48,145 bases of DNA from a virus (Duplodnaviria; Heunggongvirae; Uroviricota; Caudoviricetes), in IMG/VR virus record IMGVR_UViG_2526164669_000027; one strand, 5' to 3'. How positions within the stretch are numbered: position 1 is the first letter of the stretch; every line of letters begins with the position of its first letter. Under the pieces are notes generated by a model. It made no database searches and was not told the origin of the DNA. It saw nothing but the letters and a program-made list of their open reading frames with translations. Shown here one piece after another: positions 41,730 to 45,741 of the stretch. A program made the translations under genes and the position numbers.

Positions 41730-42146
41730 ATGATCAATAAAGCTACAACTCTTGACTGTCTCGAAGAACTGAAAAACCTTGGCAGCCTCATTACACTAAT
41801 AGCAAAAGCAACACCAGATGCTACGCTCTCTAGCGATATAGAGTCATGCGCAGGACTGGCATGGGATATGACAAATAGCATATATAGAAAGCTATCGTCA
41901 GCAATGCTTTTACAGAACAAAAATTCTGCAATCAACAACCGTCTTCGCACCCAACGCGAAGCCTGCGGCTTAACAACAGCCGAACTCGCCAGGCTGTTCG
42001 ATCTCGATGAAGACATCATAATCCAGTGGGAGAGCGGAGAGTATGAACCAACTATCAGTATGCTTATCCCGCTGGCAAATGTTCTTGGTTGCGACCCGAT
42101 GTGGCTGTTAACCGGTAAACCAACAGCGGGAGATACTTGCGCATGA
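41730..42146 (+). CDS. hypothetical protein with C-terminal HTH (XRE-like) domain (138 aa); first gene of the leftward operon
   Basis: ..GLTTAELARLFDLDEDIIIQWESGEYEP.. HTH; GAGGT RBS. Confidence 0.6.
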   Translation: MINKATTLDCLEELKNLGSLITLIAKATPDATLSSDIESCAGLAWDMTNSIYRKLSSAMLLQNKNSAINNRLRTQREACGLTTAELARLFDLDEDIIIQWESGEYEPTISMLIPLANVLGCDPMWLLTGKPTAGDTCA

Positions 42147-42508
42147 AAAAGTTCGAAAACATAACTGTTCTCCATGTTGATAACTTTGATTATACAAACC
42201 AGGAACTTCTCCCGGAGGTTGTAAAGGCAATAGATGTAGCCGATATAGTGATTAGAGGAAAGAGAATTGTCAAAAACAGGCTCGCATGCACTTCAGGAGC
42301 AATGACAGAAACAACCTCACAACAAGATGATTATGAAGGCATTTGTCTGGAGCCTGATTCATTTGCGGTAAATGTTTATCATTTATTGCATGCAACACAG
42401 GTATTACATATGTCCAGTAATCACGAAACAAAAGTACTTGGCAGCGAAATTCTGAATTTTGCATGTGAATATGCAAAAGCTGCTGCCGAAAAAGAATTAG
42501 CGCAATAA
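42137..42508 (+). CDS. hypothetical protein (123 aa), translationally coupled to the HTH protein
   Basis: Start overlaps the upstream stop. Confidence 0.55.
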   Translation: MRMKKFENITVLHVDNFDYTNQELLPEVVKAIDVADIVIRGKRIVKNRLACTSGAMTETTSQQDDYEGICLEPDSFAVNVYHLLHATQVLHMSSNHETKVLGSEILNFACEYAKAAAEKELAQ

Positions 42509-42689
42509 CAATAAATATTCCCTGAATGTTTATTACGGTTTTATCGCCGGGGATTGTTGCAACATTTATTCGCAGGAGATTATGTTATGACCTTCCTGAA
42601 ACATAAGGCATCGTATAAAACTGCCTGCCTCATTGCACAACATGGAGATTCTTATCTTCATATAGCCAACCTGTATTTGCGCAAAGCAT

Positions 42690-42893
42690 ATGGGAGATAA
42701 GTCAATGGAAGAAAAACAACAAAACATAACACATAAAAAAGTAAGAGTGTTGCTAACCATTGAAAATGGTGAAGTAATTTACTCAAAACATCTGTTGGAT
42801 AATGAATTCGTTGGCTGCATGGATACATTTCTGTGGATGGCAAAAAGAGCTGGCTACACGATTATTCCACCAGCAAAGGAGCAAACATTATGA
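42690..42893 (+). CDS. hypothetical protein (67 aa)
   Basis: Stop overlaps the next start (ATGA). Confidence 0.45.
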   Translation: MGDKSMEEKQQNITHKKVRVLLTIENGEVIYSKHLLDNEFVGCMDTFLWMAKRAGYTIIPPAKEQTL

Positions 42894-43471
42894 ATCATTC
42901 AGAGTTCCGACCAGAAGTTACGCCACATGGCATAAAAATTGGCAATACAACCATTAATTTTGTTGATGCCGTACAGCGACTTAATGATGGTGAATACGAC
43001 AATCCATACTGGCACGGCTTAAGAATCATGCAATGTATTGCTGAAGCCGATGATGCCGGATTCCTGGGAAGATTTTCAGTCGATATGAAGGTTGCTCAAT
43101 GGCGCTGGCTGTATGTGGCAACGTTTATCAGTGAAGAGGAAAACAAGAACGGCACCATTGATATCCCTAACGATAACGGAACTACAGATCGCGCAGTTAT
43201 TTATAAGGGGAAGCATGGTTGCATGAGTATATACCCAGGACCACTTCGCATTGCCCTGCAAAACCATGTCGAATGGGGATTTATTGAAAAATATGGCGAA
43301 GCTGAAGGCATGGGGCGAGTTCTGTTTCTCTATCAAAATATGCTCATCGCAGATCCTGATAATGGTTTCATTGTTTCTGCTATGGGGCGCGAAGGGCTTG
43401 AACTCCTTCTGGATGAAATGATTAACGACCTGAATACTCATGGTATGCCAGAAGCGCCAGTGACACATTAA
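42890..43471 (+). CDS. hypothetical protein (193 aa)
   Basis: MNHSEFRPEVTPHGIKIGNTTINF...; coupled to the upstream ORF. Confidence 0.55.
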   Translation: MNHSEFRPEVTPHGIKIGNTTINFVDAVQRLNDGEYDNPYWHGLRIMQCIAEADDAGFLGRFSVDMKVAQWRWLYVATFISEEENKNGTIDIPNDNGTTDRAVIYKGKHGCMSIYPGPLRIALQNHVEWGFIEKYGEAEGMGRVLFLYQNMLIADPDNGFIVSAMGREGLELLLDEMINDLNTHGMPEAPVTH

Positions 43472-43647
43472 ATATTAAGAAGAAAATAATTCTTCCGTTT
43501 TTTACTAACCGTTTATATGAAAAGCAACCGTGAATTAAACAGAGTAAAACTGATTTTAATCCTTGCCACAGTACTGACACTAACTGAAATCATTATTCTC
43601 TTTATTGCGCTGTCAGTCGGTTAAAAATATCGGGATACCACAGACCA

Positions 43648-43836
43648 ATGAGACTGTATTTCACAATAGTAATTTTACTGGCAATTATCGCATGCGTTTA
43701 CGGATTACTTGTTCCGTTCCTTATATCCATGAAGGATACGATAGCAGTTATTTCTGGCTTTGCACTGGCGTTTCTGACCCCGCCCTGCATTTATGCCATT
43801 TACAAGGGTCTTTCTTTCACTAAGGATAAAAGATGA
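43648..43836 (+). CDS. small inner-membrane protein (62 aa, two predicted TM helices)
   Basis: MRLYFTIVILLAIIACVYGLLVPFLIS...FALAFLTPPCIYAIY; stop overlaps the next start. Confidence 0.55.
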   Translation: MRLYFTIVILLAIIACVYGLLVPFLISMKDTIAVISGFALAFLTPPCIYAIYKGLSFTKDKR

Positions 43837-44660
43837 AAAAAATTATTTTTGCTTTAGCCATTGTTCTGCCGACTATTGGCCTTGTCGGTTGCGATCGCGT
43901 TGAACCAGGTAATGTTGGCATCAAGGTAAATAAACTGGGCGACGACAAAGGCGTCGGTGAGGTGGTCGGTGTTGGTCGCTACTGGACTGGCTGGAATACT
44001 GAAGTTTATATCTTCCCCACCTTCAAACAAATGAAGACCTACGATGAACCGTTCAGTTTCCAGATGAGTGACGGTACAACCATCGGCTATCACATTGGCG
44101 TGGCCTACAAAGTTGATCCATCCAAAGTTACCACGGTGTTTCAGACCTACCGCAAAGGCGTGGATGACATTACAGACACCGACCTGCGCCAGAAGATCGC
44201 CGACGCACTCAACCGACTGGCCAGCAAAATGACCACTGACAAATTTATCGACGGCGGCAAGTCTGAGCTGCTGGATGAAGCTCTTAAAGACATTCAGGCA
44301 GAGATGACACCTATCGGTATTCAGGTAATGAGCCTCTCTTATGTAGGTAAACCGGAATACCCTCCAACCGTTATCGACAGCATTAACGCCAAAGTCACGG
44401 CAAACCAGAAAACCCTGCAGCGCGAACAGGAAGTCAAGCAACGTGAAGCGGAGGCCAACATGCTACGTGCGGAAGCTGCCGGACAGGCTGATGCCATTCG
44501 AACAAAAGCCCAGGCAGAAGCCGATGCTATTCGTTTACGCGGTGAAGCTCTGCGCCAGAACCCAGGCGTCATGGAGCTGGAAGCCATCAACAAGTGGAAC
44601 GGTACACTGCCGCAATACATGACCAGTGGTGCCAATACACCATTTATCCAGATTAAATAA
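43833..44660 (+). CDS. SPFH/band-7 (prohibitin/stomatin-like) domain lipoprotein (275 aa)
   Basis: Lipobox LVGC at residues 17-20; SPFH-like core and Ala/Glu/Arg-rich coiled C-terminal segment. Confidence 0.7.
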   Translation: MKKIIFALAIVLPTIGLVGCDRVEPGNVGIKVNKLGDDKGVGEVVGVGRYWTGWNTEVYIFPTFKQMKTYDEPFSFQMSDGTTIGYHIGVAYKVDPSKVTTVFQTYRKGVDDITDTDLRQKIADALNRLASKMTTDKFIDGGKSELLDEALKDIQAEMTPIGIQVMSLSYVGKPEYPPTVIDSINAKVTANQKTLQREQEVKQREAEANMLRAEAAGQADAIRTKAQAEADAIRLRGEALRQNPGVMELEAINKWNGTLPQYMTSGANTPFIQIK

Positions 44661-44700
44661 CTTATATGCCCGGCGACCTGCCGGGCTAAGGGAAAAGCAG

Positions 44701-45072
44701 ATGAACACCCATAATACCCAACCGCAAATAATGAACTATGACCCGAATCTGACGTCATGCGGACGCATGGCAAAACAAACCGTTCGATTAACTTTCGGAC
44801 TATGGGAATACCGCGAAACATTCGAAGTTACTGTCGGCGGCAATCTGACCGGACTGGATGTTATCAGTTGCGCTATTGAAAGCCTGTACACAACGCTGCC
44901 TTATGAAGAAGTCGAGGATGAGCGCACAGGGGAAACAGATATCATGGCCACCATTAATATTGGCGAACTGATATGTCAGGATGAAGACCTGTCCGGAGAA
45001 CTCTGGCTTGCCGGGATGCTTATCTCAGCAGAAATTATCAGTATTGAACCCGCTACAAACATACGGCTCTGA
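44701..45072 (+). CDS. hypothetical protein (123 aa)
   Basis: ATG at 44701 after a GC-rich hairpin; acidic composition. Confidence 0.5.
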   Translation: MNTHNTQPQIMNYDPNLTSCGRMAKQTVRLTFGLWEYRETFEVTVGGNLTGLDVISCAIESLYTTLPYEEVEDERTGETDIMATINIGELICQDEDLSGELWLAGMLISAEIISIEPATNIRL

Positions 45073-45103
45073 AGCTCTCACTATTCAGGGAGCAGGAGAA
45101 AAA

Positions 45104-45346
45104 ATGTTCGCTTTGATTAATCAGGGGCAACTGTATACCGACAGTGCTGGCTACCCGATAAAAATTATTCGCTGCATAAACAACACTGTGTTGTACAGAA
45201 GAATGGATGGGCGAACACAGTCGGTAAAAATAAACGATTTTAATGAAATGTTTGAACGGCTCGATCACCAGGAATACCGACAAATTCTGGCAGAAACAGA
45301 GCAGGAAAATCATCTGAAGAAATTACGAGCCATGCAAAGGAAGTAA
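45104..45346 (+). CDS. hypothetical protein (80 aa)
   Basis: MFALINQGQLYTDSAGYPIKIIRCINNTVLYRR... Confidence 0.45.
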   Translation: MFALINQGQLYTDSAGYPIKIIRCINNTVLYRRMDGRTQSVKINDFNEMFERLDHQEYRQILAETEQENHLKKLRAMQRK

Positions 45347-45349
45347 AGA

Positions 45350-45496
45350 ATGAATAAAGCGTTTGAGCTATGGGTACGCCAGCGTTACGGCAATCGTTAT
45401 GACCTGACGCGAGATGTTGACGGTTTCTACTGCCGTGAAATTGTGAAACGAATGTTTGAAGTGTGGTGCCACTGCCGTGGACTGAATGTTGTGTGA
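45350..45496 (+). CDS. small hypothetical protein (48 aa)
   Basis: MNKAFELWVRQRYGNRYDLTRDVDGFYCREIVKRMFEVWCHCRGLNVV; not in the ORF track. Confidence 0.3.
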   Translation: MNKAFELWVRQRYGNRYDLTRDVDGFYCREIVKRMFEVWCHCRGLNVV

Positions 45497-45504
45497 GGTA
45501 ATGC

Positions 45505-45741
45505 ATGGGCAATGTGATTCAACTGGCTCCCAATGAATGGGTTTGTGAAAGCGTTCTTATCGCAATTACCGGGCTCAAACCAGGCACAATTCTCCGGGCC
45601 CGGAAAGAATGCTGGATGGTAGGAAGAGAGTATATTCACGTATCGCCTGACGGTAATCCAAAACCTTCCAGCGAATGTATGTATAACAGAAAAGCAATCG
45701 ATGCCTGGGTCGCTTCAATGAAAAACAAACAACCTGGGTGA
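45505..45741 (+). CDS. putative excisionase-like protein (78 aa)
   Basis: Small basic protein immediately upstream of the integrase; GAGGT RBS. Confidence 0.5.
   Translation: MGNVIQLAPNEWVCESVLIAITGLKPGTILRARKECWMVGREYIHVSPDGNPKPSSECMYNRKAIDAWVASMKNKQPG

What the first reader, a model, noticed from the sequence alone, without database searches (positions are those of the whole stretch)
41730..45741. Leftward operon lacks N, recombination and kil/cIII-type genes and is populated by AT-rich unknown genes
Between cI and xis there are about ten ORFs, none recognisable as lambda early-left functions. Together with the minimal region between the helicase and Q (one small ORF, no nin genes), the prophage combines a fully lambda-like virion module with a streamlined, cargo-rich early region, the kind of mosaic where accessory and defence functions accumulate.
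Basis: partly seen in the sequence, partly recalled or inferred. Interest (0 to 1): 0.4.

Follow-up and report, generated by a model that had tools for sequence, protein, structure and literature searches.

The report
phiP27-type N-less early-left prophage operon
This stretch is the early-left operon of a known phiP27-type E. coli prophage inserted in yecE; it does lack lambda's N, recombination, kil and cIII genes, but that layout is normal for a widespread, already sequenced phage lineage.

Summary
Ten or eleven same-strand genes lie between the cI-like repressor and xis (41730-45741). None is a detectable homologue of lambda N, exo, bet, gam, kil, cIII, ea10, ral, sieB or rex, by tblastn, Pfam, PHROGs, NCBIfam or two confident structure models. 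GC is 44% here against 54% in the virion module. The side claims also hold: one 85-aa ORF between helicase and Q, no nin genes, and a virion module collinear with lambda.

It is not new. Window 40800-47139 is 97% identical to published phage phiP27 (L01-L11), apart from one clean 573-bp deletion. The same order (cI, HTH regulator, L08, L07, L06, cargo slot, DUF4222, 48-aa gene, xis, int, yecE) recurs in Stx1/Stx2 phages, phage PhiR49_2, 80 of 80 sampled viral contigs and 65 complete E. coli genomes.

Several genes do have family assignments: an XRE-type HTH regulator, a predicted inner-membrane SPFH lipoprotein with a 62-aa membrane partner, DUF5406, a DUF4222 (RgdR-family) protein, and a DUF1233 excisionase. 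Immunity-specific operator repeats and a promoter-like site after cI indicate a cI-controlled pL equivalent, and no strong same-strand terminator follows it. A variable cargo slot exists at 43449-45103, but no known defence system was found. Interest is low.

The parts
40649..40858 (-). Small ORF in the cro position, divergent from cI (counterpart of phiP27 L12)
   Evidence: ORF list. phrog_4749, unknown function, E 3e-48. No Pfam hit. Called cro-like by position only.
40906..40926 (.). Operator-like 21-nt repeat in the cI/cro intergenic region (oR equivalent)
   Evidence: AAGAATCCAAAGTATCAAGAA is repeated at 90% identity at 41645-41665. The exact 9-mer AAGTATCAA occurs only 3 times in 48 kb, and 2 of those are in the two cI-flanking spacers.
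40970..41626 (+). cI-like repressor (HTH plus S24/LexA-type cleavage domain), counterpart of phiP27 L11
   Evidence: 34% identical to lambda cI, E 1e-37. phrog_4 transcriptional repressor, E 2e-52. PGAP calls the 657-nt homologue a LexA family protein.
41645..41725 (+). pL/oL equivalent: three operator-like sites (41645-41665, 41680-41695, 41711-41725) bracketing a promoter-like TTGCCA-17-TACCAT at 41670-41698
   Evidence: The operator motif co-varies with immunity type in relatives. Function is inferred, not shown.
41730..42146 (+). First gene of the operon, in N's position: XRE-type HTH regulator (phiP27 L10), a one-HTH derivative of a two-HTH family
   Evidence: PF01381 HTH_3, E 2e-10. phrog_4739, E 3e-83. 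Most homologues are 215-231 aa with two tandem HTH domains, and this 138-aa form lacks about 80 aa between the repeats.
42143..42508 (+). L08-like gene (121 aa from the ATG at 42143, which overlaps the L10 stop as ATGA; PGAP calls only the last 68 aa in a relative)
   Evidence: phrog_5451, E 3e-82. No Pfam, PDB or PADLOC hit. The C-terminal ~50 aa weakly resemble the N-domain of other L10 alleles (E 1e-4 and 7e-4).
42587..42700 (+). 37-aa ORF, annotated at this position in relatives
   Evidence: Sequence. 114-nt hypothetical genes sit at the same place in LC567819 and PV340570. No family hit. Weak evidence that it is a gene.
42705..42893 (+). L07-like 62-aa gene; its stop overlaps the next gene's start (ATGA)
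   Evidence: phrog_340, E 3e-24. PGAP coordinates in the relative GB089.
42890..43471 (+). L06-like 193-aa protein of unknown fold and function
43648..43836 (+). 62-aa hydrophobic membrane protein, ATGA-coupled to the SPFH gene
   Evidence: phrog_1130 membrane protein, E 3e-23. Present upstream of the SPFH gene in 79 of 80 viral contigs. No NfeD hit.
43833..44660 (+). SPFH/Band-7 lipoprotein (phiP27 L05, formerly annotated 'putative serine protease')
   Evidence: PF01145, E 3e-31. phrog_200 lipoprotein, E 4e-114. Nearest solved structure is HflK, E 4e-4. The sequence shows the signal peptide MKKIIFALAIVLPTIGLVG-C with Asp at +2, read as inner-membrane retention (inference).
44668..44686 (+). 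GC-rich hairpin immediately after the SPFH stop codon, with no U tract
   Evidence: -17.1 kcal/mol, z -2.6. Role unknown; possibly a cassette boundary or an RNA 3' stabiliser.
44701..45072 (+). DUF5406 protein (phiP27 L04)
45104..45346 (+). DUF4222 protein (phiP27 L03), the domain family of the EHEC prophage regulator RgdR
   Evidence: PF13973, E 2.5e-14. RgdR carries DUF4222 (PMC10877973). This protein has no RGD tripeptide (sequence).
45350..45496 (+). Conserved 48-aa gene next to xis
   Evidence: phrog_3871, E 5e-36. Present in 61 of 80 viral contigs and in relatives.
45505..45741 (+). Excisionase (DUF1233 type), phiP27 L02
   Evidence: PF06806, E 1e-32. phrog_539 excisionase.
45797..47110 (+). 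Tyrosine integrase, phiP27 L01, followed by the att core (about 47129-47139) and the yecE remnant plus yecN
   Evidence: Annotation of phiP27 and GB089. The alignment to phiP27 ends at 47139.

Best explanation
This is the early-left (pL-type) operon of a phiP27-type temperate phage integrated in yecE.

Proposed working. A promoter just downstream of cI is flanked by three copies of the operator motif that also sits between cI and the cro-position gene. The repressor holds it off in the lysogen. After derepression it transcribes about 5.4 kb towards xis and int. No lambda-type N/nut system is involved: the leader is only about 25 nt, there is no N homologue, and no strong same-strand intrinsic terminator lies on the way.

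The operon has three parts:
1. A conserved promoter-proximal block: an XRE-type HTH regulator in N's position, then L08, L07 and L06. This block is probably regulatory.
2. A replaceable cargo slot. Here it holds a two-gene membrane cassette (a 62-aa membrane protein plus an SPFH lipoprotein predicted to sit on the periplasmic face of the inner membrane) and DUF5406.
3. A conserved int-proximal block: DUF4222, a 48-aa gene, xis and int.

The phage carries no recombination genes of its own and presumably relies on host recombination.

Shown: gene content, absence of lambda homologues, identity to phiP27, synteny in relatives, operator repeats.
Inferred: promoter activity, repression by cI, N-independence, membrane topology, and every gene function.
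For: - Identity. Window 40800-47139 is 97.1-97.2% identical to phiP27 in two blocks, joined across a 573-bp deletion between 9-bp direct repeats CATGAAAAA.
- Absence of lambda functions. The two largest unknowns gave confident models with no match to any solved fold.
- pL/oL. A 21-nt repeat (19/21) lies on both sides of cI, further inverted copies bracket a promoter-like site, and 2 of the 3 exact AAGTATCAA copies in 48 kb fall in these two spacers. In PhiR49_2, which has a different cI, both spacers instead share an ATCAAGT/ACTTGAT motif. Stx1_14040, whose cI region matches the window's at 84% nucleotide identity, shares the window's motif.
- No + strand terminator-like site in 40500-47200. 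Only weak AU-rich hairpins follow L08 and L06.
- Lineage-wide architecture: Stx1_14040, PhiR49_2 and GB089. 80 of 80 IMG/VR contigs lack lambda N, Red, kil and cIII, and only 15 share the window's cI type. The commonest HTH allele sits in the same layout at yecE.
- Cargo slot boundaries at 43448 and 45104-45249.
- Eru1-type Stx phages have been reported to lack N, CII and CIII (PMC8044961).
Against: - No transcript or binding data exist. The promoter match is only 9 of 12, and such matches are no more frequent here than in shuffled sequence.
- Rho-dependent terminators cannot be predicted with these tools, so N-independence is not proven. An unrecognised antitermination device cannot be excluded; Rfam found nothing in 41-47 kb.
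- Readthrough from the cI promoter into the operon is not excluded, because no terminator was found after cI.
- This copy may be inactive. An IS3-family element interrupts the rightward early operon, and the HTH regulator has lost one of its two HTH domains. phiP27 has the same one-HTH form.
Confidence: 0.8

Rival explanations
1. Decay remnant. The operon was once lambda-like and lost N, Red, kil and cIII by deletion in a dying prophage.
For: The prophage shows damage elsewhere. An IS3-family insertion splits a Rha gene. There is a 573-bp deletion relative to phiP27. The regulator has lost one HTH repeat.
Against: The same N-less, Red-less gene order is present in records deposited as complete phage genomes (phiP27, PhiR49_2, Stx1/Stx2 phages) and in 80 of 80 viral contigs. 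tblastn finds no pseudogene fragments of the lambda genes. Genes are tightly packed, with ATGA overlaps.
Confidence: 0.04
2. Defence or exclusion island. The cargo slot, especially the 62-aa membrane protein plus SPFH lipoprotein, is an anti-phage or superinfection-exclusion device acting at the inner membrane. It may be expressed from its own promoter in the lysogen.
For: The slot is variable between relatives. The pair is tightly linked, 79 of 80 contigs. PHROGs files the small protein under moron/host takeover. A weak hairpin plus U6 precedes the cassette, promoter-like sites lie at 43460-43487 and 43660-43688, and a stable hairpin follows the SPFH stop. Prophage membrane proteins and lipoproteins often exclude other phages (general knowledge; for example P22 SieA, PMC10883804).
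Against: No PADLOC model matches any of the ten genes apart from generic HTH similarity. No phenotype is known. The promoter-like sites are at chance frequency. A very common relative has lost the SPFH gene while keeping the rest.
Confidence: 0.15
3. Functional stand-in for cIII. The phage SPFH lipoprotein, anchored on the periplasmic face of the inner membrane like HflK/HflC, modulates the FtsH protease. It would thereby tune the stability of phage or host regulators and the lysis-lysogeny decision, doing by another route what lambda CIII does.
For: The closest solved and curated relatives are HflK and HflC, the FtsH modulators (NCBIfam E 4e-6 and 4e-5; PDB HflK E 4e-4). The lipobox with Asp at +2 predicts inner-membrane retention (sequence; established sorting rule). 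The gene sits in the operon that carries cIII in lambda. None of the 80 related contigs carries cIII.
Against: The similarity is to the generic SPFH domain and falls far below the HflK/HflC cut-offs (25.9 bits against 134). No CII homologue was identified in this phage. SPFH proteins have many roles. The gene is dispensable in a common relative. This is inference only.
Confidence: 0.1

Closest known systems
Stx2e phage phiP27 early-left region, genes L01-L11 (AJ298298 / NC_003356)
   Same: 97% nucleotide identity over window 40800-47139. Same genes in the same order and the same yecE integration module.
   Different: The window lacks a 573-bp segment carrying L09 and an unannotated ORF, lost between 9-bp repeats. 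Its late region is lambda-like rather than phiP27-like. No stx gene was seen; a DUF4236 gene lies downstream of Q.
Bacteriophage lambda pL operon (N ... cIII, kil, gam, bet, exo ... xis, int)
   Same: Same position and direction: downstream of a cI-type repressor, ending in xis-int, with repeated operators on both sides of cI.
   Different: No N/nutL, Red, kil, cIII, ea10, ral, sieB or rexAB homologues. The first gene is an HTH regulator. Xis is of the DUF1233 type and shows no similarity to lambda Xis.
Non-lambdoid 'Eru' Stx phages
   Same: Stx-type temperate phages with a LexA-family repressor and non-O/P replication genes. Eru1 phages were reported to lack N, CII and CIII (PMC8044961). Eru6, Eru7 and Eru9 carry Rha/Ash genes next to cI (PMC8951638), as the window does.
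   Different: Those papers classify phages by replication region and do not describe this leftward operon. I did not assign the window to an Eru type.
HflK/HflC and other bacterial SPFH proteins
   Same: SPFH/Band-7 domain followed by a Glu/Ala/Arg/Gln-rich C-terminal segment of the kind that forms helices in SPFH proteins (read from the sequence; not modelled here). A periplasm-facing inner-membrane anchor is predicted.
   Different: The anchor is a lipid-modified Cys rather than a transmembrane helix. Scores are far below the HflK/HflC cut-offs. The partner is a 62-aa membrane protein, not NfeD. The gene is phage-borne.
RgdR (ECs1581), prophage-encoded activator of the LEE type III secretion system in EHEC
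   Same: Small DUF4222 protein encoded in a lambdoid prophage (PMC10877973).
   Different: No RGD tripeptide. No evidence of any effect on host genes. I did not measure similarity beyond the shared domain.

Membership tests
Lambda-type pL operon | Repressor-controlled promoter downstream of cI, reading towards xis-int | tested here: met
   Operator-like repeats shared with the cI/cro spacer, and a promoter-like site at 41670-41698. The motifs co-vary with immunity type. Sequence evidence only.
Lambda-type pL operon | N antiterminator as first gene, with a nutL site in the leader | tested here: not met
   No N homologue (best tblastn E 0.76, elsewhere in the window). No N family in Pfam or PHROGs. 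The leader is about 25 nt. Rfam found nothing.
Lambda-type pL operon | Red recombination genes exo, bet, gam | tested here: not met
   tblastn E >= 0.24. No YqaJ, RecT, ERF or Gam families anywhere in the early region. Structure models of the two largest unknowns match none of them.
Lambda-type pL operon | kil and cIII | tested here: not met
   tblastn best E is 0.83 for kil. For cIII it is 0.034, a 22-aa stretch antisense to the xis-int junction. No Pfam hit. Proteins this short can escape sequence searches.
Lambda-type pL operon | xis and int at the distal end | tested here: met
   DUF1233 excisionase 45505-45741 and tyrosine integrase 45797-47110.
phiP27-type yecE prophage early-left module | Near-identity and synteny with phiP27 L01-L11 | tested here: met
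   97.1-97.2% identity over 6.3 kb with one 573-bp deletion.
phiP27-type yecE prophage early-left module | Integration in yecE | tested here: met
   int is followed by a DUF72 (yecE) remnant and yecN. The alignment to phiP27 ends at its annotated att core.
SPFH / Band-7 family | SPFH domain above Pfam's gathering score | tested here: met
   PF01145: 109.2 bits against a cut-off of 23.6.
SPFH / Band-7 family | NfeD-type operon partner | tested here: not met
   The upstream 62-aa protein has no Pfam hit.
HflK/HflC (FtsH modulators) | Score above the NCBIfam equivalog cut-off | tested here: not met
   25.9 bits against 134.4 (HflC) and 23.1 against 159.4 (HflK).
Known anti-phage defence systems (PADLOC v2) | A match to a defence protein model other than a generic HTH | tested here: not met
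   Nine of the ten genes have no hit. The HTH gene hits only the HTH parts of RmrA and CapH models.
RgdR-type prophage regulators | DUF4222 domain | tested here: met
   PF13973: 53 bits against a cut-off of 27.
RgdR-type prophage regulators | Conserved RGD tripeptide and activation of LEE | tested here: not met
   No RGD in the 80-aa sequence. Activity is not testable here.

The most novel reading that the evidence does not exclude
The two-gene membrane cassette (62-aa membrane protein plus inner-membrane SPFH lipoprotein) in the cargo slot is an undescribed phage device acting at the periplasmic face of the inner membrane. It would either exclude superinfecting phages or tune FtsH/HflKC. Alongside it, the conserved two-HTH regulator with an exchangeable N-domain, and a free-standing N-domain-like paralogue (L08), would replace N/CII/CIII logic in this widespread phage lineage.
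Probability: 0.15. Interest if true: 0.45.

Novelty: already known. Interest (0 to 1): 0.15.

Why it matters
It matters little as a discovery. The sequence is 97% identical to a phage published in 2002, and the layout is shared by hundreds of E. coli prophages, including Shiga-toxin phages.

Its modest value is as a reminder that a common group of Stx-related phages runs early-left transcription without N, Red, Kil or CIII, and that none of its roughly ten conserved genes has a tested function. Three are cheap targets for anyone studying induction and lysogeny control in these phages: the HTH regulator in N's position, the SPFH membrane cassette and the RgdR-family protein.

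Tried and rejected
- Direct tblastn of 35 lambda early proteins against the window: nothing but cI and weak int.
- PADLOC on 19 proteins: only HTH noise.
- Rfam at permissive threshold: no nut/put-like or other RNA in 41-47 kb.
- PDB sequence searches for L06-like, L08-like and DUF5406: no hits.
- Idea that DUF5406 is functionally linked to SPFH: rejected. Distant DUF5406 genes sit near xis/int without SPFH.
- Idea that the 15-bp inverted repeat 41681-41725 is an RNA switch hiding the ribosome-binding site of the HTH gene in readthrough transcripts (-20 kcal/mol, z -4.9): set aside. Its arms are copies of the operator motif, and no counterpart was seen in the other immunity type. 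Two inverted operators are the simpler reading.
- Antisense and small intergenic ORFs: no family hits.
- The + strand gene at 29542-30729 was expected to be the OmpC-like porin seen in a relative. It is a DUF4236 protein instead.
- The original phiP27 paper could not be retrieved, so what its authors said about N is not cited.

Full report
**What is there.** The window is a prophage with its integrase end at the right. The integrase gene (45797-47110, + strand) is followed by a truncated DUF72 gene (yecE) and by yecN, so the prophage sits in yecE. The finding's coordinates are exact: 41730 is the start codon of the first gene after the repressor, and 45741 is the stop codon of the excisionase gene.

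Using the ORF list, the annotation of close relatives and family searches, I place these + strand genes between cI (40970-41626) and xis (45505-45741):
- an XRE-type HTH protein, 41730-42146;
- an L08-like protein, 42143-42508;
- a 37-aa ORF, 42587-42700;
- an L07-like 62-aa protein, 42705-42893;
- an L06-like 193-aa protein, 42890-43471;
- a 62-aa membrane protein, 43648-43836;
- an SPFH/Band-7 lipoprotein, 43833-44660;
- a DUF5406 protein, 44701-45072;
- a DUF4222 protein, 45104-45346;
- a 48-aa protein, 45350-45496.

Several junctions are ATGA overlaps, as expected for one operon. Antisense ORFs and the small intergenic ORFs match no family. "About ten ORFs" is therefore correct.

**Are lambda's early-left functions really absent?** Yes, as far as these tools can see.
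- I took 35 early proteins from the lambda reference and ran a permissive tblastn against the whole window. Only cI (E 1e-37, 34% identity) and weakly int (E 1e-4) matched. N, exo, bet, gam, kil, cIII, ea10, ral, sieB, rexA and rexB gave nothing better than E 0.03, and those matches were short and misplaced.
- Pfam, PHROGs and NCBIfam put each of the ten main genes in other families.
- The rightward early arm also has no N, no recombinase and no nin genes.
- The caveat is that Kil and CIII are about 50 aa. Functional analogues that small could hide among the 37-, 48- and 62-aa genes.

**Composition and side claims.**
- GC is 44.1% for 41730-45741, 54.1% for the virion module and 50.6% for the window. 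Per gene it runs from 35% (L07-like) to 50% (SPFH). "AT-rich" is fair but moderate.
- Helicase (31516-32916), an 85-aa ORF (31262-31519) and Q (30897-31262, PF06530) are contiguous, with no nin genes.
- 22 of 23 lambda virion proteins queried, from Nu1 to J plus lom and stf (all but the tail-fibre assembly protein), have collinear homologues at 27-96% identity. DNA identity to mEp460- and cdtI-type phages is about 86%.

**It is a known module.**
- Window 40800-47139 is 97.1-97.2% identical to Stx2e phage phiP27, genes L01-L11.
- The only structural difference is a clean 573-bp deletion between two 9-bp direct repeats (CATGAAAAA). It removes phiP27 L09 and an unannotated ORF and brings the L10 stop and the L08 start into an ATGA overlap. 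Both forms occur in E. coli genomes.
- The rest of the early region (24-41 kb) is also phiP27-like (about 90% identity over 47%). The prophage is therefore a mosaic of a phiP27-type early region and a lambda-type virion module.
- 65 of 5,426 complete E. coli genomes carry at least 80% of 41600-45800, and 811 carry part of it.

**The architecture is lineage-wide.**
- Stx1_14040, PhiR49_2 and strain GB089 all show the order cI, HTH regulator, L08, L07, L06, variable genes, (DUF4222), 48-aa gene, xis, int.
- Alignment puts the conserved left block up to window 43448 and the conserved right block from 45104-45249 onward. The part between is replaced by other cassettes: a MarR-type gene with others in Stx1_14040, and Ea22/EaA with others in PhiR49_2. 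This is a genuine cargo slot.
- In 80 IMG/VR contigs with an SPFH gene at least 97% identical, none carries lambda N, cIII, kil, gam, bet or exo within 8 kb. 79 keep the 62-aa membrane gene, and only 15 share the window's cI type. That sample is of close relatives only.
- The commonest allele of the HTH regulator lies in another yecE prophage with the same layout, but without SPFH, with a ParE-like gene, and with RusA before Q.
- The published statement that Eru1-type Stx phages lack N, CII and CIII (PMC8044961) shows that N-less Stx-type phages are already recognised.

**How it probably works.**
- A 21-nt sequence, AAGAATCCAAAGTATCAAGAA, in the cI/cro-position spacer (40906-40926) recurs at 19/21 just after cI (41645-41665). 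Related inverted copies lie at 41680-41695 and 41711-41725. Together they bracket a promoter-like TTGCCA-17-TACCAT at 41670-41698.
- The exact 9-mer AAGTATCAA occurs three times in the 48-kb window, and two of those are in these two short spacers.
- Stx1_14040, whose cI region matches the window's at 84% nucleotide identity, has the same motif in both spacers. PhiR49_2, with another cI, has a different shared motif (ATCAAGT/ACTTGAT) in both. This co-variation with immunity type is what operators should show.
- I therefore infer a cI-repressed pL equivalent whose transcript starts about 25 nt before the HTH gene. That leaves no room for a nut site.
- No terminator-like site on the + strand was found between 40500 and 47200. 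Folding of the spacers shows only weak AU-rich hairpins after L08 and L06, and a GC-rich hairpin without a U tract after SPFH.
- The simplest reading is transcription through to xis-int without N-type antitermination. Rho-dependent termination cannot be assessed here.

**What the genes may do (inference).**
- *HTH regulator.* The first gene belongs to a family whose usual members are 215-231 aa: a variable N-domain of at least four types followed by two tandem, highly conserved XRE HTH domains. The 138-aa form here and in phiP27 has lost about 80 aa between the repeats, leaving one hybrid HTH. Conserved DNA-binding domains combined with exchangeable N-domains suggest a shared DNA target and a phage-specific partner.
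- *L08.* Its C-terminal ~50 aa weakly resemble the N-domain of other alleles (E 1e-4 and 7e-4). This hints that L08 could pair with the regulator.
- *SPFH protein.* It has a lipoprotein signal peptide (…IGLVG-C) with Asp at +2, the classical inner-membrane retention signal. Its nearest characterised relatives are HflK and HflC, far below their family cut-offs. Its old label, "putative serine protease", is not supported.
- *DUF4222.* This is the domain of RgdR, an EHEC prophage regulator of type III secretion (PMC10877973). The protein here lacks RgdR's RGD motif.
- *DUF5406.* It is a widespread int-proximal phage gene, found in Stutzerimonas and Pectobacterium prophages, and is not linked to SPFH.
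- *Defence.* PADLOC found no defence protein in the operon or in the other cargo-like genes of the window.

**Verdict.** It is a near-identical copy of a published phage module that is common in E. coli, so the novelty rating is "already known" and interest is low.

The most novel reading still open is that the SPFH membrane cassette is an exclusion or FtsH-modulating device, and that the HTH/L08 pair replaces the N/CII/CIII logic. I give that about 15%.

Noticed in passing
window 37973-39186 (-), with 39238-39507: An IS3-family insertion sequence (HTH_Tnp_1 and rve ORFs, ALIL frameshift pseudoknot at 38789-38905) splits a Rha/antirepressor-type gene in the rightward early operon. The prophage is probably defective for induction.
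   Followed up: partly
window 35308-37487 (-): Two tandem Ash-Rha antirepressor-type genes, each preceded by a C4 antisense RNA and an isrK RNA (35725-35913 and 36378-36566). This is a duplicated P1-type immunity module next to a lambda-type cI/cro switch.
   Followed up: no
window 29542-30729 (+): A 395-aa DUF4236 protein, on the opposite strand to its neighbours, in a 40-43% GC slot just downstream of Q. A relative carries an OmpC-like porin there, and phiP27 carries stx2e in its Q-to-lysis region. It has no PADLOC hit and no known function.
   Followed up: partly
window 42142-42150: Junction of a 573-bp deletion relative to phiP27, between two 9-bp direct repeats CATGAAAAA that each include a start codon. 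This looks like cassette loss by recombination at gene starts. Both forms exist in E. coli genomes.
   Followed up: yes
window 41730-42146; alignment A2: The HTH regulator is an in-frame one-HTH derivative of a two-HTH family. Across alleles the HTH domains are nearly invariant while the N-terminal 60-90 aa come in at least four unrelated types.
   Followed up: partly
window 42143-42508: The C-terminal ~50 aa of the L08-like protein resemble the N-domain of other alleles of the neighbouring HTH regulator (pairwise E 1e-4 and 7e-4). It may be a free-standing paralogue of that domain.
   Followed up: partly
window 44668-44686: A stable GC-rich hairpin (-17 kcal/mol, z -2.6) directly after the SPFH stop codon, without a U tract on the + strand.
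   Followed up: no
L091 9001-14279 (E. coli CP024134): The commonest relative of this operon, also at yecE, has lost the SPFH gene but kept the 62-aa membrane gene, carries a ParE-like gene, and has RusA between helicase and Q.
   Followed up: no
whole window: No complete E. coli genome in the collection matches 41600-45800 at better than 96.7%, so the host strain is not among the 5,426 genomes searched.
   Followed up: no
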